This document shows, in pieces, positions 4,547 to 52,234 of a stretch of 64,000 nucleotides of DNA (positions within the stretch are counted from its first letter, which is position 1; each line of letters starts with the position of its first letter). The notes below the pieces were generated by a model. The model had not been told where the DNA came from and did not search any database. It saw only the letters and a program-made list of their open reading frames with translations. The stretch covers positions 2,680 through 66,679 of the forward strand of contig JABJQG010000036.1 in the NCBI GenBank assembly GCA_018663505.1, in the 5' to 3' direction. The position numbers were made by a program, and so were the translations under genes. Source of the stretch: Pseudobdellovibrionaceae bacterium. GTDB lineage: Bacteria; Bdellovibrionota; Bdellovibrionia; Bdellovibrionales; UBA1609.

Positions 4547-5710
4547 ATGAACTACTGGCTTAAAAATGTAATTTACACCTTCATCTTCTCGATTTTGCTC
4601 TCTAGCACTGCTAGCGCTAATCAATGCATTCATTATTTTAAAAACCCAAATAATAACACCAACATCTCCAAAGCGACATCCGCTCAAACTATGGGCTTTC
4701 ATACATGGTCCCGCCTCTCTCAGCACAAGTTAGAAAAAGGTGTCGCCTCATCAGAAATCACATTCAAAGCCGATTCTCCTGTTTTTGATATTCATTTTAA
4801 AAACAAGCCCGTAGTACCTGGATTTATGTTAGCAAAAATTATGGCTAGTAATGGAGCCTTACTTCTTGCCCCAAACTCCCAACCTGCAACAATCCAAACC
4901 TATGCTGCCAACAATGTGATTTGCACAAAAAAAATCCTCCCGAACACTCCTCTGAAAGTTCATAGTGAAAAAGTCACAGACCCTAAACTAATAAAAGGTC
5001 TCATTAAAATAAAAAGTGAAGTTTACACAGAGGCAGGTGTATTTCTTGCTTCTGGTGAGTTTATCATCGGCGAACATGATGCCCTTACTACCACAAAGGG
5101 ACAAACTAGGGCAAAGAATACGAAACTAGATTTTGCAGATCTGGTAAGTACAAGAGACATTAAAGACTATATGCCCCAAGCAGGCGACCTGCTCTTAGTA
5201 GATCGCATAATCCAACTCCCATCTTCACCAGCACTAGCTTCCATAAAACAGCTCCATAAAGAGTCTATCTTCAATGAAAACAACCATAAAATTGTCAGCG
5301 GTCTTCTAAATACAAAAAGGCATAAATCTATTTTAGATAGGAGTTCTAGAGAGAACCCACAATTTCCTGCAGAACTTCAAATCGAGCTTATGGCACAAGT
5401 TGCTACTTTTCATCAATTCCAGACCTGGAAAGAAGTAAACATGGGCCACTCTAACCGCAAACCAGTGAGTGTCGCCTTATCTGAAGTTCATAGTTTCGAA
5501 GTGATAAACCCCATTGCCCACCCCTCACAGTTAAGAATCAATGTTTCAGTTATTGAGTCCACACCCAGAAAAAGACTGACCACAAAATTATTCCAAGCAG
5601 AAATAGTAGATGCCAATACTGGTGCACTATACAGTTACGCAAAATTCTCCGGTATAATAGCTAAACCAAAAGCGTCTAAACCCAACTCTAATAGCCTTTC
5701 TATTAAATAA
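4547..5710 (+). CDS. Leader-bearing protein with two FabA/FabZ-like hotdog signatures
   Basis: 387 aa. The leader ends ASA|NQC. DIHFKNKPVVPGFMLAKIMA and DLLLVDRIIQL...FPAELQIELMAQVATF resemble the hotdog dehydratase strand and central-helix motifs. Confidence 0.5.
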   Translation: MNYWLKNVIYTFIFSILLSSTASANQCIHYFKNPNNNTNISKATSAQTMGFHTWSRLSQHKLEKGVASSEITFKADSPVFDIHFKNKPVVPGFMLAKIMASNGALLLAPNSQPATIQTYAANNVICTKKILPNTPLKVHSEKVTDPKLIKGLIKIKSEVYTEAGVFLASGEFIIGEHDALTTTKGQTRAKNTKLDFADLVSTRDIKDYMPQAGDLLLVDRIIQLPSSPALASIKQLHKESIFNENNHKIVSGLLNTKRHKSILDRSSRENPQFPAELQIELMAQVATFHQFQTWKEVNMGHSNRKPVSVALSEVHSFEVINPIAHPSQLRINVSVIESTPRKRLTTKLFQAEIVDANTGALYSYAKFSGIIAKPKASKPNSNSLSIK

Positions 5711-5830
5711 TTCCCTTATGGTTTTTGTAAGACTTAGCGCCAAAAGCGAGTTCGGATCGCAGCCCGATGGGTGAGAGCCGCATGTCTGAGCCTTTTGGTG
5801 TTGAATCTTACAAAAACCATAAGGGAATTA
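5707..5830. repeat. 124-bp palindromic element with a GC-rich conserved core (copy 1)
   Basis: Perfect 25-bp arms: taattcccttatggtttttgtaaga (5707-5731) and tcttacaaaaaccataagggaatta (5806-5830). The core at about 5737-5800 is shared with the element at 7731-7795. Confidence 0.85.
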
Positions 5831-5867
5831 TTTAATGGTAAGGCGAGCTACCCACATGCAACAAGCA

Positions 5868-7514
5868 TTACATATTCTGATACTTGGGGCCAGCGCCACC
5901 TTCACGAGGCTGCCACCTTGGACCCACAATATCTGTGGCCTTACAATCAATACAGTTGGGAGCATTCACCACAAGCTCCCCTCCTTTGACCTCATAAACC
6001 CCTGCTGGACATAAGTGAGAATAAAATTCGGCAACTTCTTTAGATACATCTTTACCCACAGTAAGATGCTGAGGAATATCATCACGTGTTTTATTACCAG
6101 ATAAATAAACAGCATCCACTTTAGAGAGCCCAGCTGTTTTTGGAGTATTAGCTTGAACTTCTTTGTCATCTTCATTATCAGCATGAGCACAACTTGCTGA
6201 GGGAAATGAGCCACCGGTAACTGTCATTAAACCAGCTTTTAAACTTCCCATCATAAATCCTGATTTAAACCCCTGACGCATACTACGAACTTTATAGAGG
6301 TCCTTCATAATAAAACTGTCTCTAATGTCGCTGTCATATTTTTTTAAAATATTTTCTGATGTATTATTTTCCTTTAATGCTTTAAAAATATTTCGAGCAG
6401 CATAGATCCCGGACATCATAGCATAGTGAATGCCCTTTAAGGATGGTACATTCACAAACCCAGCGCTGTCGCCCACAACCACTACACCGTCTCCATACAA
6501 TTTATTTGGAACTGAATTATAGCCACCTTCGGGAATTGTTTTTGCTCCCCACTCCAAAAGCTCTCCACCGTCTAAATAAGGCTTAATCAAAGAATGCTCT
6601 TTGAGCTCTTGTAAAAGTTCATGCACATCTAAATTATGCTCTTTGTAGTCAAGTCCAACTACCAAGCCCAAGGCCACAGAATCTTCACCCATGGGATAAA
6701 AGAAGCTACCCCCAAAAGCACTCGATGGTAATGGCCAGTTCATAGTATGAGTCACAGCATTAAGCGGCTTTTTCACTTTCCAAATCTCTTTAACACCCAA
6801 TGCATACAACTGAGGATTTGGAGCTTTAATTTCTTTCCATTCATTATAAGCTTGGGCCAATAAACCTCTTGTACCCTCTGCTAGTACAGTTACTTTTGCC
6901 GTTACGTCCGTTGCTGGCATAGATTGATCACTAGCATTTCCATCTCGATCAAGTCCGGCAGGCGTGGTTCTTACACCAGTGACTTTACCACCTTCAGTTA
7001 ATAATGCGTCCGCAGGGAAACTGCTGAGTATATTTACTCCACCGTCCTCAGCTTTTTCACCTAACCAACGAACCATTTCACAAATGGAGGCTCTATAATT
7101 TCCATGATTATTCATAGTTGGAGGCACCACAGGAAACTTAATTTGAGAATCCTTGGTTAAATAGTAAACCTCATCTTTTTCCACAGGCCCTTTAAAGGGA
7201 AAATCCTTCATCTCCATTTCAGGAAATAGCTCTTTAAAGCCCATTGGATTAACCACAGCACCAGATAAATTATGCTCACCCAAGGCTTCTGCTTTTTCTA
7301 AAACAGCAATTTCAATCTCTCCTAATGATCCACCTGATTCATTGTCTTCTTTAACTAACCGAGCAAGCTCAATGGCCCCTGATAATCCAGCAGGTCCACC
7401 ACCCACAAAAATCACATCCATAGGTACTGTGTCTTCAGTTTCAGGCTGATCCTTTAAAATAAGCTGATCAATTGGTAAATTTGCTTGATAGTCTTTAGGT
7501 TTAAACGATGACAC
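5868..7514 (-). CDS. Electron-transfer flavoprotein:ubiquinone oxidoreductase (ETF-QO)
   Basis: 548 aa with FAD motif VGGGPAGLSGA. The C-terminal 4Fe-4S region is CPAGVYE...NCIDCKATDI, ending PREGGAGPKYQNM, typical of ETF-QO. Confidence 0.9.
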   Translation of the reverse strand: MSSFKPKDYQANLPIDQLILKDQPETEDTVPMDVIFVGGGPAGLSGAIELARLVKEDNESGGSLGEIEIAVLEKAEALGEHNLSGAVVNPMGFKELFPEMEMKDFPFKGPVEKDEVYYLTKDSQIKFPVVPPTMNNHGNYRASICEMVRWLGEKAEDGGVNILSSFPADALLTEGGKVTGVRTTPAGLDRDGNASDQSMPATDVTAKVTVLAEGTRGLLAQAYNEWKEIKAPNPQLYALGVKEIWKVKKPLNAVTHTMNWPLPSSAFGGSFFYPMGEDSVALGLVVGLDYKEHNLDVHELLQELKEHSLIKPYLDGGELLEWGAKTIPEGGYNSVPNKLYGDGVVVVGDSAGFVNVPSLKGIHYAMMSGIYAARNIFKALKENNTSENILKKYDSDIRDSFIMKDLYKVRSMRQGFKSGFMMGSLKAGLMTVTGGSFPSASCAHADNEDDKEVQANTPKTAGLSKVDAVYLSGNKTRDDIPQHLTVGKDVSKEVAEFYSHLCPAGVYEVKGGELVVNAPNCIDCKATDIVGPRWQPREGGAGPKYQNM

Positions 7515-7601
7515 AGGCCCCTCCAGTAAGTGTTTTGCATTATTAATGAACTTGGAGAGTTAGCACTAAATACCCGTAAAGTCATGCGATCATTGATTTT
7601 A

Positions 7602-7920
7602 GTCAGGTAATAAGCTCAATGAATTCTACAGTCTGATTTTAATTTCCCTTGAATCTAAGCTGCAGGATAATCCTCCGACTCGCTATGTTCATTAATATTT
7701 AAGCACTCTATTTCCTTGGCCTTTTTCATCGCGCGCAAAACGAGTTCGGATCGCAGCCCGCAGGGCGAGAACCGCATGTTTGAGCTTTTGAGTGTGATGA
7801 AAAAGGCCAAGGAAATAGAGTGCTTAAATATTAGCTGAGTTCCGAACGGGTATTTCCTGCTGCTTAGATTCAAGGGAAATTAAAATCAGACTGTAGAATT
7901 CATTGAGCTTATTACCTGAC
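7602..7920. repeat. 319-bp nested near-perfect palindrome with a GC-rich conserved core (copy 2)
   Basis: The outer perfect 59-bp arms are 7602-7660 and 7862-7920. The inner 38-bp arms are 7693-7730 and 7796-7833. The core at 7731-7795 matches 5737-5800 in the same orientation. Confidence 0.9.
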
Positions 7921-8001
7921 GCGTAACGCAAACCCAGTGCTAATTTCTGCATTTCAATGTAGATTTCTGCATTTACAATTTTAACTCCAAAAAGGTTTGC
8001 T

Positions 8002-10014
8002 TTGAGTATTTGGTATGATGGTTTAAATGAGGAACAAAAACACGCTGTTGCTCATAACAACGGACCTTTGCTTATACTCGCTGGTGCAGGCTCAGGAAAA
8101 ACCACAGTCTTGGTTTCTCGTACAGGTCGGCTTGTTGATGAAGGCATCGCCTCCCCAAAAGAAATTCTAGTTCTCACATTTACCAATAAAGCGGCTCGAG
8201 AATTTAAAGAACGTGTTATTACAAAACTCGGTAAAATGGCAAAAGGAATTTGGACGGGCACTTTCCATTCATTTGGACTACAAATATTAAAAAAACATTA
8301 TAAAAAAGCACGGTTACCAAAAGGGTTTGGAATTATTGATAGCCAAGATGCCCACTCTATCATTAAAGAAATCATTAAAAATATACATTTTCCTGATAAA
8401 GATGGCTTTGATGTGGAAAAACTTTTGAGTCTTATAGGTAATTGGCGTGCCACCAAAAAATGGGAAACTGATATCGAAGATGAGTATGAGCAAATGGCTG
8501 AAATTATTTTGCCTCGATATGTTAACAAATTAGAGCAGCTAGGTGTTGTGGATTTTGATTCCCTTCTTTTAAAACCCTTAGAGCTTTTTGAAAATGAACC
8601 TGAGGTACTATCATACTATCAAGATAAATATTCCCAAATAATGGTTGATGAGTTTCAAGATACCAATAAGATTCAAATGAAATTGATTGAACAAATTTCT
8701 GACACTAAAAAAAATCTTTGTGTTGTTGGAGATGATGATCAGTCTATTTATGGTTGGCGTGGTGCTGAAATCCAAAATATCTTAAACTTCCCACATCGGT
8801 ATAAAAACTGTGAAGTGGTAAGACTGGTTAAGAATTATAGATCCACTGGCAAGATTTTAGAACTAGCAAATGCCGTTATCCAATGTAATAAAAATAGACA
8901 TGGTAAAGTTCTTACAGCAGCTCTTGGTGGTATAGGAGACAAACCTGAGTTTTTTCAATTTGAAAGTGAAGACCACGAGTCCGAACAAGTTATGCAGCAA
9001 ATTCATTATTTCTTAAGACAGGGCTACCACGAGGATGAGATTGCTCTTCTTTATCGCTCTAACTCTCAAGGTGGAGTTCTTGAGGCTAACTTAAGACGAC
9101 ATATGATTCCTTATAAGCTTACGGGTGGACAAGCTTTTTTTGAACGTAAAGAAGTTAAAGATATTCTTGCCTACTTAAGGTGTGCTATTTTGCCTCACGA
9201 AGTGGCCTTTCGCAGAATTCTCAACACTCCGCACAGAGGGCTGGGTGATAAATTCTTTGAAAAGATTAATAGTGTTTGTGAAGAGGAAGAACTTACTTTT
9301 TATCGAGCTACAAAACAGTGGCAAAAATGGGATATTAAAAACTCACAAGGAGAGTCTTTAGAGGAGCTTTTTGAGATTTTTAGAACTATTAAAACTTCGT
9401 TAGCAAATCCAGAAAACAAAAAAAGCAACTTTGATTATGCGGCTGGCCTTTTAGACCTTATTAACAGAATTGGTTATCGTGACTACTTAGTTAAAAACAC
9501 AAAAGACGGATCTCAGTTTCAAAAACGATGGCAAATGATAGAGGTGTTCTCTCGTGTTTTTCACAGCTATATGCAAAAAGAGGATCGCGACTTAATGGGC
9601 TTCCTTGAAGCCATGGATCTTAGGGACCAAGTCCAAGATGACGATAGTGACGAAAAAAAAGTTCAACTTATGACACTTCATGCTTGCAAGGGGCTGGAGT
9701 TCCCTGTGGTAATACTAGTTGGCGTGGAGGAGGATATTCTACCGCATAGAAGTTTAGGACAGGATATTGACGAAGAACGGCGCTTATTTTATGTGGGTGT
9801 AACCAGAGCTAAAGAAAGACTGGTTATTACTCGCTCTCGTTATCGCAAACGATTTGGGCAACAGCAAAAATCTGCTGCTTCGCGGTTTATTTTAGAAATT
9901 CCTGATAACCTATATGAAAGTTTTGATGATGGATTCCGCCCCGTTCAAGAAGTTGAACGCAAGTCTATGTTGGCAGACCTTTATAAAAAACTTGATTCTA
10001 AACGAACATCTTAG
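8002..10014 (+). CDS. UvrD/PcrA/Rep-family ATP-dependent DNA helicase
   Basis: 670 aa with a TTG start. SF1 motifs present: AGAGSGKT, FTNKAA, VDEFQDTN, VGDDDQSIYGWRGA, KNYRST, MTLHACKGLEFPVV, LFYVGVTRAKE. Confidence 0.92.
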   Translation: MSIWYDGLNEEQKHAVAHNNGPLLILAGAGSGKTTVLVSRTGRLVDEGIASPKEILVLTFTNKAAREFKERVITKLGKMAKGIWTGTFHSFGLQILKKHYKKARLPKGFGIIDSQDAHSIIKEIIKNIHFPDKDGFDVEKLLSLIGNWRATKKWETDIEDEYEQMAEIILPRYVNKLEQLGVVDFDSLLLKPLELFENEPEVLSYYQDKYSQIMVDEFQDTNKIQMKLIEQISDTKKNLCVVGDDDQSIYGWRGAEIQNILNFPHRYKNCEVVRLVKNYRSTGKILELANAVIQCNKNRHGKVLTAALGGIGDKPEFFQFESEDHESEQVMQQIHYFLRQGYHEDEIALLYRSNSQGGVLEANLRRHMIPYKLTGGQAFFERKEVKDILAYLRCAILPHEVAFRRILNTPHRGLGDKFFEKINSVCEEEELTFYRATKQWQKWDIKNSQGESLEELFEIFRTIKTSLANPENKKSNFDYAAGLLDLINRIGYRDYLVKNTKDGSQFQKRWQMIEVFSRVFHSYMQKEDRDLMGFLEAMDLRDQVQDDDSDEKKVQLMTLHACKGLEFPVVILVGVEEDILPHRSLGQDIDEERRLFYVGVTRAKERLVITRSRYRKRFGQQQKSAASRFILEIPDNLYESFDDGFRPVQEVERKSMLADLYKKLDSKRTS

Positions 10015-10039
10015 TGCTGAATATATACCTAGGCACTGA

Positions 10040-12373
10040 TTACAAAGCAAACCATCGAGGTTTGCTCCACGCAGACTCGAATTCTTTATATTTTGACCTT
10101 ACACGCCAATAAAGTTTTCCTTTAATCTTTTCCTCAAGCAAATAAACAGATTCTTTAACTGTGGCTGAGTGCTCAATAACCGAAAATGATTTATCTTTCG
10201 ATATTTGAATAATATATTCATTAGCATTAAGATTTTTTGTCCACTTAAAAAATAAACTAGCACCAGCTTCTTCAACTTTATCATCTTCATCTTCAAAGGA
10301 TACAACTTCCATTCCATTTGAAGGGATTTTTAGTTTTGGAGGGTCTAACATTAAACTCTTATTAATAACAATCTGAGCTTTGTTGGATATAGAACTAATC
10401 TTTCGATTATTTTCACCTAACATTTGAATATTATATGAATATTTACTTTTATGGTCTAGTTCGGCTTCGTAGCTTGTTTTTTTAACTTTAGCGGTTTTAA
10501 TCAACTGATCGTCTTTATCATATATATTCAAAATGTATTTACTGGCAAAAGGTGAACCTTTCCAGGTCAGCTTCACTAGCCCCTTCTTGTTAAATTCACT
10601 TAATTTTTTTGTTTGAAGTGCAATGGAATTATCAGTAATTTTCGGATCAGAAAGCTGAACATCAAGTACTTTGGCTGAGGACCAGCGACTTGGTCTTCTA
10701 TTTTTGGCCAAGGCTCGTACTCTCCAATAGTTTTTTCCCACTACAGGTTTTCCCCAATCAAAGTTTTTTGAAGTCACTGTTTTTGAAAAGTTTATTTTAT
10801 TGAACAACTTTTGTTTGGACATTTGTAGTTCATAACTTAAACCTAGCACATCTTTTTCTTGCTGGTCTTGCCAAGAAAATTGAGGTTTGTTTGTGATTCG
10901 CTTTTGGTGAGCAGCAATTCCTCTGCCAAGAGCTTTACTTGAATCAAAAATTAATTTGTATATTTTTTGATTACCTTTAACTTTAATGCTGCTTGGGCTT
11001 TTCAGTTGATGAATTGCCACATCATCCTGTTTAAGAGCTTTACTTTGCAGCTCTGTTTCAACACTATCAACTACTTCTGGTGCTTTAGGGACTTCAGCCA
11101 GTTTACTTTCTGGCAAAAGCTGAATATCCGTTGACTGAATCACCTTAAAAGAAAATGGCTGACTCCAGGCTATATTTACGTTAGAGTCTGTGGGATTTTT
11201 AGCACTCACTCTCCAAAAATATTCACCAGAACTCACCCCCTTGCTATGAAACTCTGAATTTACAGTTTCTATGTCAACTTGAGGATTTTTAAATTTAATA
11301 TTGTCAGCTACTTGCAGGTGATAATTTAAATTTTCACCGCGATTTTCCCAAAACATTTTAAAGGCTAAGCTATCCACACCCTCCTCAAGTTCAAATTCAA
11401 ATCTATTCATTGGAAAATAAACAGCTAAGGGTTGAGTAGACACAGTTTCAAATCTAAACACTGGGCTCTCAAGCTTTTTCCCCAACTCATCTTTTGATAG
11501 AACCTTCCAGAAAAATGAGCTCTCACTATCCAAATCAGATATGCTAAACTTCTGTTCACTCACCTCTCTTGTCACTAATTCTTCATTGAAATTAATGTCT
11601 TTTGCTATTTTAATTTGATATTTATGTTTATTACTTCCGGCGGTTTCCCAATGAAAAGGAACTACCTCCCCAGGCTTTAACCAAACTTGTTGGTCATCCT
11701 TAGGACTTTTTAATGAAATTTTTATCTGTGTTTTTTTAACTTTAAGATTTTCTTTTATTTCTATAAAATTAGTTTTATCTATCACTTGAACTTCGCCATT
11801 TAACTCAAACTTAGCTGCACCTTCTTTGGACACAAAACCCATTCCACCATTTTGTTTTTTTGAAATTTTAATAATTGCTTCATTGTTAAGTTCTATTTTG
11901 GCTACCTTACCTTTATGAACAATATTTAACCCATCTTTGCGTATGGCCTTGTTCTTTCCTTTTCTTGACACCTTTGCGGAAAATTGACCAACTTGTAAGT
12001 CTAAAAACACTTCGTTATCACTACGAGTTAACTTCACCAAACTGTTGGCTTGAAGAGTTAGCTCTAAACCCGAATCTAAAATAAATTTTGTTGCCGACTT
12101 GTCTCCTGTAAAAAGACTATCTCCTTCAAATAAATCTTCACTGTTTGTGGCCTTAAACCAAAGCAAGCTTGCACCTACTTTTCTTCTTACATCATTTTTA
12201 ATAATTTTAATTTTACCAATTAAAACACTGTTAGTTGAGTTACGCATAAAACTACGTAAGAGAATTGATTCGTTAAACAACAAGTAAGACGACGCAATAA
12301 TTCCTAACATTGAAAACACTAAAAGTGTCCAATCAATCTTCCCTAGCCTATAGCCTTGCTTCTTCTTTTCCAT
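10040..12373 (-). CDS. Large membrane-anchored envelope protein with a FecR-like region and repeated Fn3-like modules
   Basis: 777 aa with an N-terminal TM (WTLLVFSMLGIIASSYLLF). The FecR-like segment is GDSLFTGDKSATKFILDSGLELTLQANSLVKL. At least five repeats carry Y-x-[IL]Q[IMV] plus F/YWRV motifs. Confidence 0.6.
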   Translation of the reverse strand: MEKKKQGYRLGKIDWTLLVFSMLGIIASSYLLFNESILLRSFMRNSTNSVLIGKIKIIKNDVRRKVGASLLWFKATNSEDLFEGDSLFTGDKSATKFILDSGLELTLQANSLVKLTRSDNEVFLDLQVGQFSAKVSRKGKNKAIRKDGLNIVHKGKVAKIELNNEAIIKISKKQNGGMGFVSKEGAAKFELNGEVQVIDKTNFIEIKENLKVKKTQIKISLKSPKDDQQVWLKPGEVVPFHWETAGSNKHKYQIKIAKDINFNEELVTREVSEQKFSISDLDSESSFFWKVLSKDELGKKLESPVFRFETVSTQPLAVYFPMNRFEFELEEGVDSLAFKMFWENRGENLNYHLQVADNIKFKNPQVDIETVNSEFHSKGVSSGEYFWRVSAKNPTDSNVNIAWSQPFSFKVIQSTDIQLLPESKLAEVPKAPEVVDSVETELQSKALKQDDVAIHQLKSPSSIKVKGNQKIYKLIFDSSKALGRGIAAHQKRITNKPQFSWQDQQEKDVLGLSYELQMSKQKLFNKINFSKTVTSKNFDWGKPVVGKNYWRVRALAKNRRPSRWSSAKVLDVQLSDPKITDNSIALQTKKLSEFNKKGLVKLTWKGSPFASKYILNIYDKDDQLIKTAKVKKTSYEAELDHKSKYSYNIQMLGENNRKISSISNKAQIVINKSLMLDPPKLKIPSNGMEVVSFEDEDDKVEEAGASLFFKWTKNLNANEYIIQISKDKSFSVIEHSATVKESVYLLEEKIKGKLYWRVRSKYKEFESAWSKPRWFAL

Positions 12374-31415: not shown

Positions 31416-32102
31416 CTAACTATAATCATTGTTTGAACGCTTGACGATTCTAAACTGATCGGCCCAATTCACCAAGGCGAATGGCTGCTTAGTTTGTATC
31501 CAAACCTTACCTTCACCTTTAAAGCGAGCCACAAAGCCTTCGCCAGAAAAAAATAAAGATTTATAACCACCAATGCGACTCACACTATAGTCTAGTCCTT
31601 CAGTGAAGCCCACAATGTGCCCAGTATCCACCACGTACTCACCTTTTACGTCCACATCAAACAACGCACCATAGGTGTTAAACCAAACATTTCCCTTCCC
31701 AGAGCACTTCATTATAAATAAGCCCTCGCCAGAAAAAAAACCCTTAGCTAGACCTTGAAATTTTGAATCAATTTGCACTCCTGTGTCTGAAGCTAAATAA
31801 CTTGTAGAAGTTAAAAACAATTCCTTCCCACCATCTACGTAATAGTGACCAATATCCCCTGGGGGTCCTGGCGCAATGACAATTTCTGAATCAACACCAT
31901 CCGCTGTATATTCATTTAAAAAAAGAGACTCTTTAGCTAAGAAACGTTTAAAGCCTCCCTTTAAACGAGTTTTCATTTTTAAGCTGAGGTCCATAGAGGC
32001 CATTGCCGAGGCTTCCACTTTTAATGTTTTACCCTTGGGAACCACAACACTTAAAGCAGCATAATCTGGCTGTGCTTCTATATTAAATGAAAATTCAGAC
32101 AT
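31416..32102 (-). CDS. AIM24/TIGR00266-family protein (copy 3 of 3)
   Basis: 228 aa with ESLFLNEY, GEGLFIMK, VDTGHIVGF and SGEGFVARFKGEGKVWIQT. Confidence 0.8.
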   Translation of the reverse strand: MSEFSFNIEAQPDYAALSVVVPKGKTLKVEASAMASMDLSLKMKTRLKGGFKRFLAKESLFLNEYTADGVDSEIVIAPGPPGDIGHYYVDGGKELFLTSTSYLASDTGVQIDSKFQGLAKGFFSGEGLFIMKCSGKGNVWFNTYGALFDVDVKGEYVVDTGHIVGFTEGLDYSVSRIGGYKSLFFSGEGFVARFKGEGKVWIQTKQPFALVNWADQFRIVKRSNNDYS

Positions 32103-32111
32103 ATAAATTCC

Positions 32112-32795
32112 TTAGTTAGTTCTTTTTACTTTTAGATATGGTCTTAATTTTTTGCCAAAACCCTTTGCATCGTGACTCTGACACCAAATACGCCCCTTTC
32201 CTTTAAAGCGACAAACCAAACCTTCGCCTCCCATAAAAGAATGCAGCCAGCTTGAACCTGCTTTTGAAATTGAGAATTTTAGAGTTTCATCAAAAGCAAC
32301 AATATGCCCAGTGTCCACAGTGTATTCCCCATCTACTTCCACTGGATAAATAGCACCGAAGGCGTTTAATAATACAACACCCTCACCTTTTAAGTTGAGC
32401 CAAAACAAACTCTCACCAGAAAAAATGGATTTAAATCCCTGCCAACCCACGTCCATAGAAACCCCCTCGTCACAAGCCAAAAATGAGGAGCTCTGTACAA
32501 TAATGTTCTCGCCTGATAGCTCAACCTGTGCCATATCTCCAGGAAGAATAGAAGATAAGTAAACTTCACCTTGGGAGTGGGCTGTATAATGGTTTAAGAA
32601 AAATGACTCACCAGCAAAAAGTCTTTTAATGGACTTTAACAAACTGCCTTTTCCCTTTTTATGAGTAGTTGTTTGCAGGTCAATGCCCTGAGACATAGCA
32701 ATCATAGAACCAGACTCTGTAGTCATTGTGTCACCAGCATCAAGATTGACTTTAGCTGCTGTATTACTTGGACCATATAAAATTTCAATATTCAT
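32112..32795 (-). CDS. AIM24/TIGR00266-family protein (copy 2 of 3)
   Basis: 227 aa with ESFFLNHY, GESLFWLN, VDTGHIVAF and GGEGLVCRFKGKGRIWCQS. Confidence 0.8.
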   Translation of the reverse strand: MNIEILYGPSNTAAKVNLDAGDTMTTESGSMIAMSQGIDLQTTTHKKGKGSLLKSIKRLFAGESFFLNHYTAHSQGEVYLSSILPGDMAQVELSGENIIVQSSSFLACDEGVSMDVGWQGFKSIFSGESLFWLNLKGEGVVLLNAFGAIYPVEVDGEYTVDTGHIVAFDETLKFSISKAGSSWLHSFMGGEGLVCRFKGKGRIWCQSHDAKGFGKKLRPYLKVKRTN

Positions 32796-32796
32796 T

Positions 32797-33468
32797 TTAA
32801 CTCCAAAATCTAGGGTTCAACCAACCGGCTAAACCACCAACACTTCTTGTTTGTAGTTTTATTTTTCCTCGCCCCTCTAGTCTAAGCACAATACCTTCTC
32901 CGCTAAAAAAACTAGAAAAAATTCCACCTGAGAGCTGTGCCTTAAGTGTTATATTTGGTGGGTAAGACAATAGATGCCCTGAATCCACAATATAATGTCC
33001 CACAACTTCTGTTTCTATGACGGCACCATAGGCCCCATACCAAACTTGACCGGTACCAAACAGTCTTAGGCGAAAAAGCCCCTCTCTTGCTAAAAATGAG
33101 GAGATACCAGCCCAACTGATTTTATACTTTATTCCCGCAGTACTTGCCATGTATGCCCCGGGTTGAATAAAAAGAGTTTCATTATTCAATTCAACTTCGA
33201 TAATCTCCCCAGGAGTGGGTTGAGATAATACAATATGTCTTTCTTGGCCCGATTCATTTATAAATTCATTAATAAATAGGGATTCTTTACCAAGAAATCG
33301 TAATAATAATGCCTTAATGAAGCCACCACCGTTAAATTTAGATCGAAGTTCTATGGCACAATCTTTACTTGCCATAGCCCCTGACTCAGCAATGATAAGC
33401 TCTCTAGGCTGAAGTTTGACTCTTAGAAAACCAAAAGCTTTACCTCCGCGAATTTTAACGTCCATCAT
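32797..33468 (-). CDS. AIM24/TIGR00266-family protein (copy 1 of 3)
   Basis: 223 aa with ESLFINEF, REGLFRLR, VDSGHLLSY and SGEGIVLRLEGRGKIKLQT. Confidence 0.8.
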   Translation of the reverse strand: MMDVKIRGGKAFGFLRVKLQPRELIIAESGAMASKDCAIELRSKFNGGGFIKALLLRFLGKESLFINEFINESGQERHIVLSQPTPGEIIEVELNNETLFIQPGAYMASTAGIKYKISWAGISSFLAREGLFRLRLFGTGQVWYGAYGAVIETEVVGHYIVDSGHLLSYPPNITLKAQLSGGIFSSFFSGEGIVLRLEGRGKIKLQTRSVGGLAGWLNPRFWS

Positions 33469-46293: not shown

Positions 46294-46866
46294 TTAATTA
46301 ATGAGTGAAGACTCAATGTAAAGGTAATGATGGTCATTGTCTTTAATAGCTTCAAAATAAATACCTTCATTGAGATGAAACTCAAAACTACGATCTGTAG
46401 TAAAGCTAATGATCATTCCTAAATTATTAAATTGGCTTGTGACAATGTCCCCATATATATTAATAAATTCAATACCCTGGCCTGTGGTTCTTAGTTCGTT
46501 CGATAGCCTTTTGCTAGTATCTTTGGACAAGCCATAGTTAATACTATTTTTAGCTCTTTTTGATCTTGATTTATTACGAATAATTTTAGGAGCCCAGTAA
46601 ACAAATGGAACTGATGTTGCTCCAAGTGCTTCTAAGTGAGTAAATACAATAGACATTCCATACATGGATGACTTGGAAACCTTCACTTTACCTTTTGCTA
46701 ATTTTATTTTAACATTTTCTTCCTGAATATTTTTATCTCCCTCACTAAATAAAACTGAATTCCAGTAAGGTAAGTCAGCGAAGACCCAATGTTCATAATC
46801 ACTTGCCCAGCAAAATTGAATTTGTAATGATAATATAATTGTCAAAAAAAGCAGTTTAGTTTTCAT
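46294..46866 (-). CDS. Exported protein, paralogue-family member (full-length type), last gene of the nine-gene operon
   Basis: I prefer the internal Met (MKTKLLFLTIILSLQIQFCWA) at 46866 over the ORF-track start at 46956. It shares HWVFADLPYWNSVLFSEGD and EFINIYGDIVTSQFNNLGMIISF...YLYIES with ORFs 51629, 52231 and 52839. Confidence 0.6.
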   Translation of the reverse strand: MKTKLLFLTIILSLQIQFCWASDYEHWVFADLPYWNSVLFSEGDKNIQEENVKIKLAKGKVKVSKSSMYGMSIVFTHLEALGATSVPFVYWAPKIIRNKSRSKRAKNSINYGLSKDTSKRLSNELRTTGQGIEFINIYGDIVTSQFNNLGMIISFTTDRSFEFHLNEGIYFEAIKDNDHHYLYIESSLIN

Positions 46867-47440
46867 AACTATCCTCTGTTTTACTGTAAATAAATTTAAT
46901 GATTGCCACAGGAGGTTTATTTTTTTCAATGAGAATAAATTGGTTGGGATTTTCATTAGAGCGTCGAAATTGATATTTTGGAGTACTAAAACTTGTTATC
47001 TGTGCCGACTTATCAAATCTTATGACCTGGACGCTGCCAAACTGATTAATAAAATAATAAGACTCTTCCCATCTCACTAGTTCTTGGTTCCATTTGTTTT
47101 TGATTTTCTCAATGAGTTCATTGAGTACTTTATTTTCCAATTGTTTGTGTTTAAGTTCATCATAATCGGCATACATAGTATGCCAAGCTCCTAAGAAAAC
47201 AATATTGGCAAACAAACTATCACCGTGACCCTTGTAATTTTCAAGATCCTCGATTGTTTTAATGTAACTCTGGTTGGGACTGTTAAGAAGCTGAAATATA
47301 TAAGCTGATGGAATTGGGATTTCAAGAACCTCTAACTCTTTAGAATAAGAAAGCATTGAAAGTATAATTAACGTAAATGTGATAAGCAATTTCATATATA
47401 TCCGTACATTGTTTAGGTTAATTCTTAGAATTTTTTTCAT
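46856..47440 (-). CDS. Exported protein sharing the C-terminal module of the paralogue family
   Basis: 194 aa. The likely true start is MKLLITFTLIILSMLSYS at 47395. The C-terminal YFINQFGSVQVIRFDKSAQITSF...FILIEKNK aligns with the family module. Confidence 0.55.
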   Translation of the reverse strand: MKKILRINLNNVRIYMKLLITFTLIILSMLSYSKELEVLEIPIPSAYIFQLLNSPNQSYIKTIEDLENYKGHGDSLFANIVFLGAWHTMYADYDELKHKQLENKVLNELIEKIKNKWNQELVRWEESYYFINQFGSVQVIRFDKSAQITSFSTPKYQFRRSNENPNQFILIEKNKPPVAIIKFIYSKTEDSYEN

Positions 47441-48788
47441 GACTTGCTAATGCCTCTAAAGTTGTAGTTAACTGAGTAAATGGTTTAAAAAGATCATCAC
47501 TGATAAATTGAGAAAATTCATCTTCATTAGAGAGAAGGTCATTATATAAAATTACATACGTGGGGTGATCTTGAGATATAACAGTACTTAGAAACTGGGA
47601 AAACTTATGGTCAGTACTGTAGGAATTTGAATCCAATTCTGCTTTTAATACTTCAGCTGCATTTTTAAGCCCCTCAATATTTAAAGTAAATACTGATTTC
47701 TGCCCAGGGTACAAAGATATAATACCTACTTTTTGTACTCTACCATTCAATTCTAAGCGTATATAATCACTTACCGAAGTAATGACTCTTCTTTCACCAT
47801 TTTCTAAAATAACCGTTGCTAATAAATCTTGTTCCGATTTCCAGGAGCTAAGGTATGGAGAATTGCGAGAGTCATTAAACAACTCAGTACTTAAGCCAAC
47901 AATCTGTGCCCCTATTGACAAACTATTTCCTGTTCCATGAGGAATTATACTTGCTGTGGCAGTGGGCCGGGTTTCCAAAGGGCTGTAAAATTCAACACCA
48001 TTAAATTTAATAATTTCATTTTCATAGTCATAGGAGTAAGATCTTTTTTTTCCACCAAGCATAACATCCAGTCCACTCTTGATATCTCGCGCGCCAACAA
48101 CATGCATAGTTATATTACTCACCTTTTGAAATGTTCTTGTACTTAATGAGGAAAACAACCCCACCATCTGATCGTTTTTTTCATCTAAGCTTACACTTCC
48201 ACCAGAAATTCCGAATCCACCAACACCTATAGCAATGATTTCATTTTGAACATCAGGGCGTTTTATCGATTGACTATTTAAATTCTGTATTTTCAACGTG
48301 GTTGCCAAAAAGTTATTATGACTGCCCGACAGGTATGCAGAACCGTAAGCTTCAGTTTCTTTTTGGGGCAATACCAAATCTGTATCAAGATTTGCCTTTT
48401 TTATCCCACGACAGTCTTTGCTGTCCATCCCCTTAAGTAAAGCTGTTTCTGTACCCCAGTCACGGCCAATAATCATAACAGGTACGGTTTTATGTTTTTT
48501 ACTTGTTAAAAATACGCTTGTGTCCCCAATGGGTTTTAACCCTAGAGTATGATCTGCTGTTATATAATAACAATCATCGCTTTTAATATTTTTATAATTA
48601 AATTTTGAAATATCCAACAAAGTGGCAGAAGCTTGTTCTAAAGTGCCTCCGGACTTACTATTATAAGCTGATGTTAAATTTGTTAATGAAAATATATTTT
48701 TAGGATACATCTTTTTAGAATACAATTCTCTGGCAAATAACGAGGAAAACATTCCTAATAAAACTATTAATAAAACGAGTGATTTCAT
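47418..48788 (-). CDS. Exported protein with an N-terminal trypsin-like (S1/Trypsin_2-type) serine protease signature
   Basis: 456 aa with a signal peptide. ITADH (His), then ETALLK about 35 residues later (in the position of D-[IL]-A-L-L-K), then GFGISGGSV (G-x-S-G-G) about 115 residues after the His. The C-terminal ~250 aa are unassigned. Confidence 0.45.
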   Translation of the reverse strand: MKSLVLLIVLLGMFSSLFARELYSKKMYPKNIFSLTNLTSAYNSKSGGTLEQASATLLDISKFNYKNIKSDDCYYITADHTLGLKPIGDTSVFLTSKKHKTVPVMIIGRDWGTETALLKGMDSKDCRGIKKANLDTDLVLPQKETEAYGSAYLSGSHNNFLATTLKIQNLNSQSIKRPDVQNEIIAIGVGGFGISGGSVSLDEKNDQMVGLFSSLSTRTFQKVSNITMHVVGARDIKSGLDVMLGGKKRSYSYDYENEIIKFNGVEFYSPLETRPTATASIIPHGTGNSLSIGAQIVGLSTELFNDSRNSPYLSSWKSEQDLLATVILENGERRVITSVSDYIRLELNGRVQKVGIISLYPGQKSVFTLNIEGLKNAAEVLKAELDSNSYSTDHKFSQFLSTVISQDHPTYVILYNDLLSNEDEFSQFISDDLFKPFTQLTTTLEALASHEKNSKN

Positions 48789-51632: not shown

Positions 51633-52234
51633 TGCACTTCCTTGGGTATGAAATTAGGCTCAACGTAAAGGTGAATACTTTCATTATCACCTTGTTTCGC
51701 GACAAAGTAGCTTCCATTATCATGGTCATAAAGTTCAAATTTCATATTATTACAGATGAATGACTGTAACATCCCCATGTTATTGAACTCTGCAGACTGT
51801 ATTTCACCAAATAGATTTATAAAGCTAGCCCCATCATCATTAGATCTAAGATCTAAATTTAAATTTTTCGTAAGAGACCTCATTCTATAATTAATACTGT
51901 TAATATTTGACTTAATCTCACTACTTTTAACCGGTCCTTGAATAGCTGAAGGACCAATGATTGCCCATTTATATATGATAGGCTCGGCTGCTCCAAGAGC
52001 AAGAACTGTCCCAACACCAACCAAACTAGATATCCCAGCTGCTTTACTATGTCGACTATAGCTAAGTGAATTAGTTTTCGCCTCATGCATTCTTTGCAGA
52101 GTTCCATCTCCAACACCATAAAGGACGTTTTGCCAAGTAGGCATATTCCCTACTATCCAAAAAGCACATGACGACTGAGCAATGAGAATAGACATTCCAA
52201 TAGTTAAACCTTTTAAAATAATCTGACGTTTCAT
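51629..52234 (-). CDS. Exported protein, paralogue-family member (full-length type)
   Basis: 201 aa with AFWIVGNMPTWQNVLYGVGD, a Gly/Ala-rich hydrophobic stretch, and SFINLFGEIQSAEFNNMGMLQSF...YFVA...LYVEPNFIPKE. Confidence 0.6.
   Translation of the reverse strand: MKRQIILKGLTIGMSILIAQSSCAFWIVGNMPTWQNVLYGVGDGTLQRMHEAKTNSLSYSRHSKAAGISSLVGVGTVLALGAAEPIIYKWAIIGPSAIQGPVKSSEIKSNINSINYRMRSLTKNLNLDLRSNDDGASFINLFGEIQSAEFNNMGMLQSFICNNMKFELYDHDNGSYFVAKQGDNESIHLYVEPNFIPKEVQ

What the first reader, a model, noticed from the sequence alone, without database searches (positions are those of the whole stretch)
5707..7920. Conserved ~60-nt GC-rich core at the centre of two otherwise unrelated palindromes bracketing the ETF-QO gene
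The two cores are in the same orientation and nearly identical. Copy 1 (5737-5800) reads gcgccaaaagCGAGTTCGGATCGCAGCCCGatGGGtGAGAgCCGCATGTcTGAGCcTTTTGgtgt. Copy 2 (7731-7795) reads gcgcgcaaaaCGAGTTCGGATCGCAGCCCGcaGGGcGAGAaCCGCATGTtTGAGCTTTTGagtgt. They share a 20-nt exact run plus several shorter blocks.

Each core sits at the apex of a long inverted repeat, but the arms have no similarity between the two copies. Copy 1 has 25-bp arms. Copy 2 has 59-bp and 38-bp arms. The core is strongly GC-rich in an AT-rich genome and is not itself a simple hairpin beyond its CAAAAG/CTTTTG ends.

One copy lies just 3' and one just 5' of the minus-strand ETF-QO gene. Possible explanations are a small structured RNA or protein-binding module, or a tiny mobile element that inserts into the loops of pre-existing palindromes.
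Basis: seen in the sequence. Interest (0 to 1): 0.7.

Follow-up and report, generated by a model that had tools for sequence, protein, structure and literature searches.

The report
Dispersed long-hairpin repeat with conserved tip
The two GC-rich cores are the conserved tips of two copies of a hairpin-shaped DNA repeat scattered through this uncultured predatory-type bacterium's genome, and the small motif at the tip also caps long hairpins in plasmids and phages, which suggests a widespread class of strand-specific hairpin element that I did not find catalogued.

Summary
The 65-nt cores (5737-5801 and 7731-7795, same strand) share an exact 20-mer. Each sits at the centre of one of the only two long palindromes in the 64-kb window.

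They are not unrelated palindromes with an inserted core. A metagenome scan and a spurious-ORF trick found 15 more copies at unrelated loci of a second low-GC Bdellovibrionota-like population. Every copy has the near-invariant apex plus 50-71-nt near-perfect arms. The arms differ between loci, but within two subfamilies they are recognisably homologous.

Copy 2 and its two relatives are nested. An inner element replaces the apical mini-hairpin of an outer core.

Copies fill short spacers just after stop codons, including rbfA-truB and nosD-nosF. The more stable strand is antisense to transcription in 13 of 16 copies.

The apex contains a roughly 30-nt irregular hairpin, here called hp1. The same motif caps long variable-armed hairpins in 253 plasmids, including published low-certainty ssDNA-promoter candidates, and in phage contigs. 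A covariance model built only from those sequences finds every copy here. None of these families is in Rfam.

Best reading: a non-autonomous hairpin element of the REP/MITE kind, with unusual apex-conserved architecture. Function is unproven.

The parts
5694..5844 (+). Copy 1: complete simple (subfamily A) hairpin element, 151 nt
   Evidence: Inverted arms and core. The fold is -77 kcal/mol, z = -12. It is homologous to 12 subfamily-A copies in loci L012-L039.
5694..5746 (+). Copy 1 left arm, including the foot GCGCCAAAAG. The last codons and stop of the FabA-domain ORF (ends 5710) lie in its outer part.
5747..5791 (+). Copy 1 apex (core), 45 nt
5753..5780 (+). Copy 1 hp1 motif: CGGATCGCAG-CCCGATGGG-TGAGAGCCG
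   Evidence: Hit by covariance model R1, built from phage and plasmid sequences only, at 17.4 bits. This is the weakest hit of the family.
5792..5844 (+). Copy 1 right arm, including the foot CTTTTGGTGT, which makes two G.T pairs with the left foot
7602..7920 (+). Copy 2: nested (subfamily B) composite element, 319 nt
   Evidence: Same two-tier plan as L020 and L026.
7602..7667 (+). Copy 2 outer left arm (pairs with 7855-7920)
   Evidence: 66 nt, 98% complementary
7668..7692 (.). Left unpaired stretch: probable degenerate remnant of the outer core
   Evidence: Position is equivalent to the split outer-core halves of L020 and L026. CCTCCGACTCGC resembles the reverse complement of GCGAGTTCGGAGG by eye only; nhmmer does not detect it.
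7693..7740 (+). Copy 2 inner left arm (pairs with 7786-7833)
   Evidence: 48 nt, 94%. Its outer end aatatttaagcact resembles AAAATTAAGCAAT of L020 and L026 by eye.
7741..7785 (+). Copy 2 apex (core), 45 nt
7747..7774 (+). Copy 2 hp1 motif: CGGATCGCAG-CCCGCAGGG-CGAGAACCG
   Evidence: Model R1 hit, 27.4 bits, E = 0.0018, full length
7786..7833 (+). Copy 2 inner right arm
7834..7854 (.). Right unpaired stretch: probable degenerate remnant of the outer core (TGAGTTCCGAAC)
   Evidence: Weak plasmid-HMM hit at 7834-7851, E = 3.4.
7855..7920 (+). Copy 2 outer right arm
5868..7514 (-). ETF-ubiquinone oxidoreductase gene bracketed by the two copies. This is context, not part of the element.
   Evidence: Pfam ETFQO_UQ-bd and Fer4_ETF_QO. 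Best homologues outside this strain are 67-68% identical, from Bdellovibrionales MAGs.
8002..10014 (+). UvrD-family helicase gene 81 nt downstream of copy 2 (context)
   Evidence: Pfam UvrD-helicase and UvrD_C

Best explanation
The two cores are the conserved tips of two copies, one simple and one nested, of a dispersed hairpin-forming intergenic repeat. Simple copies are 150-190 bp and nested forms are 320-390 bp. The family has colonised the chromosomes of at least two uncultured low-GC Bdellovibrionota-like populations.

**Unit.** The unit is the whole hairpin. It has a roughly 67-nt apex module, which is nearly invariant and strand-asymmetric, containing the irregular hairpin hp1 (CGGA[K]CGCAG, variable stem-loop, [Y]GAG[M]ACCG). 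On each side are 50-70-nt arms whose sequence is free but whose pairing is maintained.

**Proposed mechanism (inferred).**
- The element is, or was, a non-autonomous mobile DNA.
- It is copied into short intergenic spacers, and occasionally into the apical loop of a resident copy.
- It probably moves through a single-stranded + strand hairpin recognised at the apex by a trans-acting protein.
- Arms drift quickly but are re-symmetrised by templated correction within the hairpin, by selection for pairing, or by both.
- Only copies whose stable strand is antisense to local transcription survive inside operons.

**Shown versus inferred.** Shown: family membership, architecture, nesting, orientation bias, strand asymmetry, and hp1 shared with plasmid and phage hairpins. 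Inferred: mode of movement, the ssDNA intermediate, the protein partner, and the reason for the orientation bias.
For: **Copy number and spread.**
- 17 distinct copies at unrelated loci, plus one arm in a chimeric contig: 2 in the window, 15 in a second population.
- All copies are intergenic, next to unrelated housekeeping genes.
- No copy was found in about 60 kb from relatives whose ETF-QO is 67-68% identical or whose TruB is 49% identical.

**Insertion as a whole unit.**
- The rbfA-truB spacer is 23 nt in a relative. Here it is 184 nt and holds a 173-nt element.
- That element abuts the rbfA stop codon on one side and the truB ribosome-binding site on the other.

**Arms.**
- A copy's own arms pair at 93-100% at every position from 11 to 52 nt from the core.
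- Pairing the left arm of one copy with the right arm of another gives only 25-50%.
- Most positions show 3-4 different Watson-Crick pair types.
- Sister copies L012 and L015 are 87% alike over 32 nt of the inner arm, and their differences are compensated in both arms.
- A G.T pair 8 nt from the core is kept in 12 of the 14 simple copies and is never a Watson-Crick pair.

**Nesting.**
- Split core halves flank an inner element in L020 and L026, and the junctions are 100% identical over 36 nt on each side.
- The inner core is flipped relative to the outer core in one of the two.

**Strand asymmetry.** The + strand is the more stable in 13 of 15 elements, by 8 kcal/mol on average.

**Orientation.** In 13 of 16 copies the gene ending next to the element lies on the opposite strand.

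**hp1 elsewhere.**
- A 26/28-nt match to plasmids falls at the apex of a roughly 240-nt hairpin. That family is found in 253 plasmids at 507 places.
- A phage family of about 25 members has the same plan.
- In both, the apical stem covaries: 5 of 12 pairs change on both sides and 99.5% of cells are paired.
- The T:A pair of the window family corresponds to G:C in plasmids, in phages and in the outer cores of the nested copies.
- Model R1, built without any sequence of this family, hits all 17 cores full length and nothing else up to E = 10 in 202 kb. Scores are 25-28 bits, with window copy 1 at 17 bits.
- The phage family shows the same geometry. The + strand is more stable in 21 of 22 members, and the element lies 3' of an opposite-strand gene in 18 of the 22 with a called ORF on that side.
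Against: - No transposase, integrase, reverse transcriptase or HUH protein is encoded in the 64-kb window. No partner gene was identified anywhere.
- There are no target-site duplications and no conserved termini.
- No two copies have near-identical arms, so there is no sign of recent movement. All contigs of the second population are clonal, so no presence/absence polymorphism could be seen.
- A near-invariant core next to strongly diverged arms could instead mean that each copy is under selection for a host function, or that cores are homogenised by gene conversion.
- The similarity to plasmid hairpins is short. BLAST gives E = 0.04 against 7.3 Gb, and nhmmer gives 12-17 bits.
Confidence: 0.55

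Rival explanations
1. The element is a host-useful cis-acting RNA element in mRNAs. When transcribed with the upstream gene, it forms a 50-70-bp hairpin in 3' UTRs and between cistrons. There it could act as an RNase III processing site, a 3'-end stabiliser, or a direction-dependent terminator or insulator, with the apex as a protein-binding platform. It would have spread because it is useful, in the way REP/BIME or ERIC elements affect mRNA stability (this comparison rests on my own knowledge).
For: - Copies sit -1 to 50 nt after stop codons and inside operons such as rbfA-truB and nosD-nosF.
- Orientation relative to transcription is biased, 13 of 16 here and 18 of 22 in the phage family.
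- Invariant junction modules joined by helices of free sequence are the usual signature of a structured RNA.
- There is a weak terminator-like site on the mRNA-sense strand inside the core.
Against: - The strand present in the mRNA is the less stable one. G.U pairs become A.C mismatches, giving -18.9 against -29.2 kcal/mol for the apex. The + strand is favoured in 13 of 15 elements here and 21 of 22 in phages.
- No U-tract follows the full hairpin.
- In L020 and L026 the two conserved modules have opposite relative orientation, so they cannot both be on the functional strand of one RNA.
- No Rfam family matches.
- Adjacent genes are functionally unrelated.
Confidence: 0.2
2. The elements are chromosomal counterparts of plasmid single-strand initiation signals or ssDNA promoters (Frpo/ssi/ssp type). 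The + strand hairpin, when single-stranded, would recruit RNA polymerase or primase to make a primer or transcript, or would act as a replication roadblock.
For: - The hp1 apex is shared with plasmid hairpins that lie upstream of ardC, ssb and DUF3560 genes on the template strand.
- Those plasmid hairpins match the 'Frpo* 1/3' candidates of Samuel et al. 2024 (PMC11541004, supplementary file 4).
- Long strand-specific hairpins are the defining form of such signals (PMC11541004; PMC13478746).
- The mini-hairpin loops are GAA or GCA in most copies.
- A small RepL/MOBV plasmid also carries one copy.
Against: - No -35/-10 pair was found in either window copy, and the arms are too variable to carry conserved hexamers.
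- Copies lie in housekeeping operons of a chromosome, with no conjugation genes nearby.
- The plasmid family itself is only a low-certainty candidate. The validated promoters of plasmid F lack hp1.
- The same motif occurs in phage contigs with capsid and tail genes, between structural genes.
- By GC skew, the stable strand in the window lies on the leading-strand template, which is not the strand exposed at forks (inference).
Confidence: 0.12
3. One reading: a 60-70-nt mobile core that inserts into the loops of pre-existing, unrelated palindromes.
For: Nested copies show that an element can sit in the apical loop of another hairpin. The arms of the two window copies are unrelated.
Against: - All 17 copies have long arms, and there are no coreless long palindromes in 64 kb.
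- Arms are homologous within subfamilies.
- The rbfA-truB spacer in a relative is 23 nt, with no palindrome.
- In nested copies the inserted unit brings its own 50-nt arms.
Confidence: 0.04
4. The palindromes are assembly or amplification artefacts, that is, fold-back chimeras.
For: Two other assemblies of this locus break inside the palindromes. One contig (L047) is chimeric through the shared core.
Against: - An independent 10,980-nt contig spans both copies at 99.96% identity.
- The same architecture recurs at 17 loci across many samples and assemblers.
- Normal genes continue on both sides.
Confidence: 0.01

Closest known systems
Plasmid long hairpins listed as low-certainty ssDNA-promoter candidates ('Frpo* 1/3', Samuel et al. 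2024, PMC11541004), found here in 253 PLSDB plasmids including IncW and PromA types
   Same: - A long strand-asymmetric hairpin with variable arms.
- The same hp1 motif at the apex: flanking blocks match 9/10 and 8/9 nt, and the two differences form a compensatory pair.
- The same mini-hairpin loops (GAA, GCA, AAA).
- Several copies per replicon.

   Different: - The plasmid hairpins are GC-rich, imperfect and about 240 nt long, with extra conserved boxes (GCCGCACG, AACGGGTGAGGA, GTCAAGGG/CCCTTGAC) that are absent here.
- They lie on conjugative or mobilizable plasmids, often upstream of ardC, ssb or DUF3560 genes.
- The window elements are AT-rich with near-perfect arms, are chromosomal, and lie in housekeeping operons.
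- No promoter hexamers were found here.
- The function of the plasmid family has not been tested, as far as the papers read here show.
Phage-contig hairpin family in IMG/VR (GC 0.6-0.7), located between capsid and tail genes; I found no description of it
   Same: - A roughly 170-nt hairpin with variable, compensated arms and hp1 at the tip.
- The + strand is more stable in 21 of 22 members.
- The element lies just 3' of a gene on the opposite strand in 18 of the 22 with a called ORF on that side.

   Different: - Usually one copy per phage contig; one contig has two.
- The apical stem is 5 bp with 4-6-nt loops.
- The K:M pair is G:C.
- Arms are imperfect.
REP / BIME / REPIN elements with RAYT transposases (features from my own knowledge; REPINs also listed, PMC3116915)
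   Same: Abundant extragenic hairpin-forming repeats, often at the 3' ends of genes and inside operons. They have no target duplications. They are thought to move as single-stranded hairpins, and pairing is kept by compensated changes.
   Different: - In REP and REPIN elements the conserved sequence is in the stem (a 20-40-nt REP with a GTAG-type head), and the loop or spacer varies.
- Here the tip is invariant and the stem sequence is free.
- No RAYT gene was seen.
- Arms are 50-70 nt long.
MITEs such as Correia and ERIC elements (features from my own knowledge)
   Same: Non-coding, 100-200 bp, intergenic, co-transcribed with neighbouring genes, with hairpin potential and orientation-dependent effects.
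   Different: MITEs have conserved terminal inverted repeats and target-site duplications. Neither is present here.
Single-strand origins of rolling-circle plasmids (ssoA type) and Frpo/ssi/ssp signals of F-like and IncI plasmids (Frpo/ssi/ssp from PMC11541004, PMC13478746 and bioRxiv 10.64898/2026.01.09.698686; ssoA from my own knowledge)
   Same: A long, orientation-specific ssDNA hairpin with conserved short boxes and otherwise variable stems.
   Different: - Those signals carry promoter-like -35/-10 boxes or the RSB/CS-6 boxes.
- There are one or a few copies per replicon.
- The leading region of plasmid F has no hp1.

Membership tests
hp1-capped long hairpins (class defined here from plasmid and phage sequences) | Apex motif CGGA[K]CGCAG, stem-loop, [Y]GAG[M]ACCG, with K:M paired | tested here: met
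   Model R1 was built from 19 phage and plasmid sequences only. It hits all 17 cores full length and nothing else up to E = 10 in 202 kb. Scores are 25-28 bits, E about 0.001-0.006, with window copy 1 at 17.4 bits.
hp1-capped long hairpins (class defined here from plasmid and phage sequences) | The motif sits at the tip of a long hairpin whose arms vary between copies but stay paired | tested here: met
   this family; plasmids; phages
hp1-capped long hairpins (class defined here from plasmid and phage sequences) | The strand carrying hp1 in the sense orientation is the more stable one | tested here: met
   13 of 15 here and 21 of 22 in phages. Plasmid L056: -83.7 against -72.2 kcal/mol.
Frpo / ssi / ssp ssDNA promoters | -35 and -10 hexamers formed within the stem | tested here: not met
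   No promoter-like site in 5694-5844 or 7602-7920 on either strand. Arms carry no conserved hexamers.
Frpo / ssi / ssp ssDNA promoters | Located in the leading region of a conjugative element, on the transferred strand, upstream of early genes (ssb, psiB, anti-restriction genes) | tested here: not met
   The window encodes no conjugation or leading-region genes. Copies lie in rbfA-truB, nosD-nosF, after hisS, and similar places.
Frpo / ssi / ssp ssDNA promoters | Sequence similarity to experimentally known Frpo/ssi elements | tested here: not met
   Similarity is only to the untested 'Frpo*' candidates. The leading region of plasmid F has no hp1.
Frpo / ssi / ssp ssDNA promoters | Transcription or priming from single-stranded DNA | not testable with these tools
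   Needs an in vitro or in vivo assay.
REP / REPIN (RAYT-associated) | A conserved 20-40-nt REP sequence forming the stem, with a conserved 5' tetranucleotide | tested here: not met
   The stem sequence is variable and the conserved part is the tip.
REP / REPIN (RAYT-associated) | A cognate RAYT (Y1 HUH) gene in the genome | tested here: inconclusive
   None among the 50 window ORFs. The rest of the genome was not available.
MITE | Terminal inverted repeats conserved between copies | tested here: not met
   The outer 20-30 nt of the arms cannot be aligned between copies.
MITE | Target-site duplication | tested here: not met
   No direct repeats flank any of 15 elements.
Any Rfam 15 RNA family | A match at or near the gathering score | tested here: not met
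   No hit at gathering thresholds. Only generic miRNA-hairpin matches far below threshold. The same holds for the plasmid and phage relatives.
Intrinsic terminator | A GC-rich stem directly followed by a U-tract on the transcribed strand | tested here: inconclusive
   No U-tract follows the full hairpin. One weak 5-bp site followed by CTTTT lies inside the core on the mRNA-sense strand.

The most novel reading that the evidence does not exclude
hp1-capped long hairpins may be one cross-phylum class of strand-specific nucleic-acid elements found in phages, conjugative plasmids and some chromosomes. A conserved irregular apical hairpin would be read by a widely conserved protein, such as RNA polymerase, a primase or a hairpin-specific nuclease or transposase. 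The stem could take any sequence, and the tip would tolerate nested insertions. In this Bdellovibrionota lineage the class would have become a proliferating genomic element. That would link ssDNA-promoter-like plasmid hairpins with REP/MITE-like genome repeats, and would provide a natural system in which palindrome arms evolve by self-templated correction.
Probability: 0.3. Interest if true: 0.85.

Novelty: new variant of a known kind. Interest (0 to 1): 0.68.

Why it matters
Dispersed hairpin repeats such as REP, REPIN, MITE and ERIC elements are well known. In those, the conserved part is the stem or the termini. Here the pattern is inverted: the tip is nearly invariant and the 50-70-bp stems have essentially free sequence yet pair almost perfectly. 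Copies can also nest inside each other's tips.

The tip motif links three things that have not, to my knowledge, been connected:
- a chromosomal repeat family in an uncultured marine predatory-type lineage;
- a very common plasmid hairpin, so far noted only as a low-certainty ssDNA-promoter candidate;
- a phage hairpin lying between structural genes.

If the motif is read by a common protein, the class offers a defined, testable entry point into how single-stranded hairpins are recognised during transfer, replication or transposition.

There are also practical consequences. These palindromes break metagenome assemblies and create chimeric contigs. They also generate spurious small ORFs in protein databases.

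Tried and rejected
- **Exact 20-mer in 185,579 species genomes.** It gave only 8 chance hits, all in high-GC genomes.
- **Phage searches with the core.** IMG/VR scans with the 20-mer and with the second conserved block found nothing. BLAST of the core against INPHARED phages found nothing.
- **Rfam.** Gathering and E-value modes gave only generic miRNA-like hairpin matches.
- **Small-protein hypothesis.** On the mRNA-sense strand the core holds AAAGG, 7 nt, then ATG, followed by an open frame (MRFSPFGLRSELAFGAK...). I rejected it for three reasons: peptide lengths run from 17 to 54 codons, the frame is no more open than the other two, and there is no synonymous variation.
- **Spacer-like origin of the arms.** An outer-arm 24-mer has no match in IMG/VR. 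Arms match nothing but themselves and sister copies in all the DNA held.
- **Arms copied from flanks of other copies.** No such match was found, but the sample is only about 330 kb.
- **Orthology or calibration between the two populations.** The only shared gene is a UvrD-family helicase at 36% identity, probably a paralogue. The evolutionary distance between the two hosts is therefore unknown.
- **Close relatives for empty-site or arm-turnover comparison.** The nearest ETF-QO is 68% identical and the nearest TruB 49%, so only distant empty sites were available.
- **tRNA-like, K-turn, hammerhead and SRP-like readings of the apex.** I considered these by eye and dropped them, because the required consensus features are absent.
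- **Plasmid F ssp/Frpo elements as relatives.** The F leading region has no hp1.
- **The degenerate hp1 pattern in IMG/VR.** About 95 of 121 matches are chance hits in GC-rich coding DNA. Only the family of about 25 members is real.

Full report
**1. The observation**

The sequence is as described. The segments 5737-5801 and 7731-7795 lie on the same strand and are 83% identical without gaps. They share the exact 20-mer CGAGTTCGGATCGCAGCCCG, which occurs only at 5747 and 7741. No match appeared in any of 100 dinucleotide-preserving shuffles, even with 3 mismatches allowed.

Copy 1 is the centre of a 151-nt palindrome. Its arms are 5694-5746 and 5792-5844, 53 nt at 89% complementarity. Copy 2 is the centre of a 319-nt two-tier palindrome:
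- inner arms 7693-7740 and 7786-7833, 48 nt at 94%;
- outer arms 7602-7667 and 7855-7920, 66 nt at 98%;
- 25-nt and 21-nt unpaired stretches between the two tiers.

These are the only inverted repeats longer than about 25 nt in the whole 64-kb window. The window is about 35% G+C. Both hairpins fold far better than shuffled controls, with z = -12 and -14.

The flanking genes are:
- a FabA-domain ORF, 4547-5710, + strand;
- ETF-ubiquinone oxidoreductase, 5868-7514, minus strand;
- a UvrD-family helicase, 8002-10014, + strand.

**2. Source and reality of the sequence**

The ETF-QO protein is found on three public metagenome contigs. One of them is a 10,980-nt contig that spans both copies at 99.96% identity. 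The other two break inside the palindromes, as de Bruijn assemblers tend to do at inverted repeats.

The closest ETF-QO proteins from other organisms are only 67-68% identical, and those that carry names come from Bdellovibrionales MAGs. The window therefore comes from an uncultured Bdellovibrionota-like lineage with no close relatives in the databases. The palindromes are real.

**3. It is a repeat family**

A scan of JGI metagenome contigs with the 20-mer returned 27 loci. Seven were chance hits in contigs of 59-67% G+C. The other twenty were genuine copies in contigs of 33-39% G+C.

More copies came from two further steps:
- A profile search of the loci held found one more full copy and also split core halves.
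- A search of the protein database with the peptides that a gene caller would read across the core found five spurious small ORFs, one of them from a MAG named "Bdellovibrionaceae bacterium". These led to more loci.

After removing duplicates, there are 15 distinct copies in a second population, whose contigs from different samples are about 100% identical, plus the two window copies. One further arm is seen only in a chimeric contig.

Every copy has the same plan:
- a 45-nt apex that is almost invariant;
- a foot, GCGCCAAAAG paired with CTTTTGGTGT;
- arms of 50-71 nt that are nearly perfectly complementary.

Total length is 149-187 nt for simple copies and 319-389 nt for nested ones.

**4. 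The arms belong to the element**

Among the 14 simple copies, a copy's own arms form Watson-Crick pairs in 93-100% of cases at each position from 11 to 52 nt from the core. Pairing the left arm of one copy with the right arm of another gives only 25-50%. Most positions show three or four different pair types.

The arms are nevertheless homologous.
- Aligned on the core, subfamily A shows a semi-conserved inner arm, roughly gaattccctttttgatttggaaNatttagcgccaaaag.
- Similarity fades outwards until the outer 20-30 nt cannot be aligned.
- Sister copies L012 and L015 are 87% identical over 32 nt of arm. Their differences, including an indel, are mirrored in both arms.

Window copy 1 belongs to subfamily A. 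Window copy 2 belongs to subfamily B, together with L020 and L026. That is why the two window arms look unrelated.

At rbfA-truB the 173-nt element touches the rbfA stop codon on one side and the truB ribosome-binding site on the other. In a relative whose TruB is 49% identical, the same spacer is 23 nt. So the whole hairpin, arms included, is extra DNA at that site. There was no pre-existing palindrome, and the arms are not copies of the flanks.

No target-site duplications are present.

**5. Nested copies**

In L020 and L026, the unpaired stretches between outer and inner arms are the two halves of a second core. They match profile positions 1-30 and 39-69. The inner element therefore replaces the apical mini-hairpin of an outer core exactly.

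The outer halves, the junctions and the first 13 nt of the inner arms are 100% identical between L020 and L026, over 36 nt on each side. The middle of the inner arms differs. The inner core has the opposite orientation relative to the outer core in the two loci. This implies an inversion between the arms at some point.

Window copy 2 has the same two-tier layout. Its outer-core remnants (7668-7692 and 7834-7854) are degenerate and can be recognised only by position and by eye.

**6. Where copies sit, and in which orientation**

All copies are intergenic, and the neighbouring genes are unrelated to each other. They include rbfA, truB, nosD, nosF, hisS, a KamA-like radical-SAM gene, a NifU-like gene, metallophosphoesterases and a response regulator.

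In 13 of 16 informative copies, the gene that ends next to the element lies on the strand opposite to the core as written, with a gap of -1 to 84 nt. The mRNA would therefore carry the reverse complement of the core.

The two strands are not equivalent. On the + strand the foot and apex add several G.U (or G.T) pairs, which become A.C mismatches on the other strand. The 73-nt consensus apex folds at -29.2 kcal/mol on the + strand against -18.9 on the other. Whole elements favour the + strand in 13 of 15 cases. A G.T pair 8 nt from the core is kept in 12 of the 14 simple copies and is never a Watson-Crick pair, even though the rest of the stem is kept almost perfect.

**7. What it is not**

- Rfam gives nothing at gathering thresholds, and only generic miRNA-type hairpin matches at permissive thresholds.
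- All 50 window ORFs were scanned against Pfam. There is no transposase, integrase, reverse transcriptase or HUH enzyme.
- A small ORF starting at an ATG in the core on the mRNA-sense strand has no frame conservation.
- Neither window copy contains a sigma-70-like promoter. Only a weak terminator-like site lies inside the core.
- About 60 kb from three relatives contains no copy.

**8. A link to plasmids and phages**

*First plasmid hit.* BLAST of the 73-nt consensus against PLSDB gave a 26/28-nt match, with E = 0.04, in Burkholderiales conjugative plasmids. The matched site is the tip of a roughly 240-nt imperfect hairpin. It is more stable on the same strand, at -83.7 against -72.2 kcal/mol with DNA parameters.

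*The plasmid family.* That hairpin belongs to a family found in 253 plasmids at 507 places, and the apex is its most widely conserved part. Examples include:
- an IncW plasmid, upstream of an ArdC-type (zincin-like metallopeptidase) gene;
- PromA-type plasmids, with 4-7 copies each, some upstream of ssb, ardC and DUF3560 genes;
- a 2.6-kb RepL/MOBV plasmid.

*Published candidates.* Two sequences listed as "Frpo* 1" and "Frpo* 3" in Samuel et al. 2024 (PMC11541004, supplementary file 4) share this family's conserved boxes. That paper describes them as candidates with only limited similarity to known ssDNA promoters.

*The shared motif.* The common part is an irregular hairpin, hp1: CGGA[K]CGCAG, a variable stem-loop, then [Y]GAG[M]ACCG.
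- In plasmids the apical stem covaries (CCC/GGG, CC/GG, GC/GC and a long form), and the loops are GAA, GCA or AAA. The same loops occur in the family studied here.
- The only two differences in the flanking blocks, T instead of G and A instead of C, face each other in the helix. The outer cores of the nested copies have the G:C version.

*The phage family.* An IMG/VR scan with the degenerate pattern returned mostly chance hits in GC-rich coding DNA. It also returned a family of about 25 phage-contig hairpins of roughly 170 nt, with variable arms and hp1 at the tip. Where the neighbouring genes were checked, they lie between capsid and tail genes.

*Tests of the link.*
- On an alignment of 19 plasmid and phage hp1 sequences, 99.5% of cells are paired. 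Five of 12 pairs change on both sides, and all shifted-register controls collapse.
- A covariance model built from those 19 sequences alone hits all 17 cores of the present family over its full length. Scores are 25-28 bits, with window copy 1 at 17 bits. It finds nothing else at E up to 10 in 202 kb, which includes the three relatives.
- The phage family shows the same geometry. The hp1-sense strand is more stable in 21 of 22 members. The hairpin lies just 3' of a gene on the opposite strand in 18 of the 22 with a called ORF on that side.
- None of these families is in Rfam.
- The experimentally studied ssDNA promoters of plasmid F do not contain hp1.

**9. Interpretation**

Firmly established:
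- a dispersed family of long hairpin elements, in which the unit is tip plus arms;
- a tip that is nearly invariant, with arms that are free in sequence but kept paired;
- nesting at the tip;
- placement immediately after genes, with a strand bias;
- a tip motif shared with plasmid and phage hairpins.

The most economical mechanism is a non-autonomous mobile element of the REP/REPIN/MITE kind. It would be handled as a single-stranded hairpin of the + strand and recognised at its asymmetric tip.

The near-perfect stems, despite large divergence between copies and including mirrored indels, point to templated correction within the palindrome. Selection for pairing may add to this. The conserved G.T mismatch, which resists that correction, points to a functional requirement for asymmetry.

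The orientation bias can be explained by survival. A copy would be tolerated in an operon only if the very stable strand is not the transcribed one.

These steps are inferences. No partner protein, recent copy or empty-site polymorphism was seen. The invariant tip could instead reflect a host function at each locus, or gene conversion among copies.

The two main rivals remain open:
- an RNA-level role in mRNA processing or stability;
- an ssDNA priming or promoter role like the plasmid Frpo/ssi signals.

The first is weakened because the mRNA carries the weaker-folding strand. The second is weakened by the lack of promoter boxes and by the chromosomal and phage contexts.

**10. Verdict**

It is a new family, apparently undescribed, of a known broad kind: dispersed hairpin repeats. 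Its architecture is unusual, and it has an unexpected relationship to plasmid and phage hairpins. I rate it a new variant of a known kind, with interest 0.68.

Noticed in passing
L048:2434-2799: A relative (ETF-QO 67% identical) has a different cluster of four roughly 75-nt units in alternating orientation, with 32-nt spacers. It lies between an amino-acid permease gene and a YchJ-like gene. It shows no similarity to the core studied here.
   Followed up: no
window 5694-10040, compared with L048 and L051: Compared with two relatives, the ETF-QO-to-helicase block is inverted in the window, and it lacks the permease and RNase T genes that lie between them elsewhere. Copies 1 and 2 sit at these rearranged junctions.
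   Followed up: partly
window 7602-8002; L025:6657-6839: Two of the 17 copies lie immediately upstream of UvrD-family helicase genes. The two helicases are only 36% identical. UvrD is the host helicase reported to resolve an ssDNA-promoter hairpin roadblock on plasmid F (bioRxiv 10.64898/2026.01.09.698686). This may be coincidence.
   Followed up: no
L047 compared with L039: Contig L047 is 99% identical to the nosD-nosF locus (L039) from the core rightwards, but has a different left arm and different upstream DNA. Either the assembly is chimeric or a recombination has occurred through the shared core.
   Followed up: partly
L010, L011 (window 5807-7660): Independent assemblies of the window locus end inside the palindrome arms, so these elements fragment metagenome assemblies.
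   Followed up: yes
window 7655-7873 (minus strand) and 5771-5989 (+ strand); proteins P0121-P0125: Mechanical ORFs run across the core. Equivalent spurious 'hypothetical proteins' of 63-78 aa are deposited in public protein databases.
   Followed up: yes
window 46294-53992: Eight consecutive minus-strand ORFs (188-537 aa) have no Pfam match at E <= 1e-5.
   Followed up: no
window 31416-33468: Three tandem AIM24-family paralogues, followed by an M48 peptidase gene.
   Followed up: no
L059 and L060 (PromA-type plasmids): The plasmid hp1 hairpins occur as pairs of copies that are identical over more than 110 nt, at distant intergenic sites and in both orientations. That looks more like a dispersed repeat than like dedicated promoters.
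   Followed up: partly
L091, L129, L181 (IMG/VR phage contigs): The phage hp1 hairpin lies between the major capsid gene and a non-contractile tail sheath (DUF2460) gene. One contig also has an ATP-dependent DNA/RNA ligase gene nearby.
   Followed up: partly
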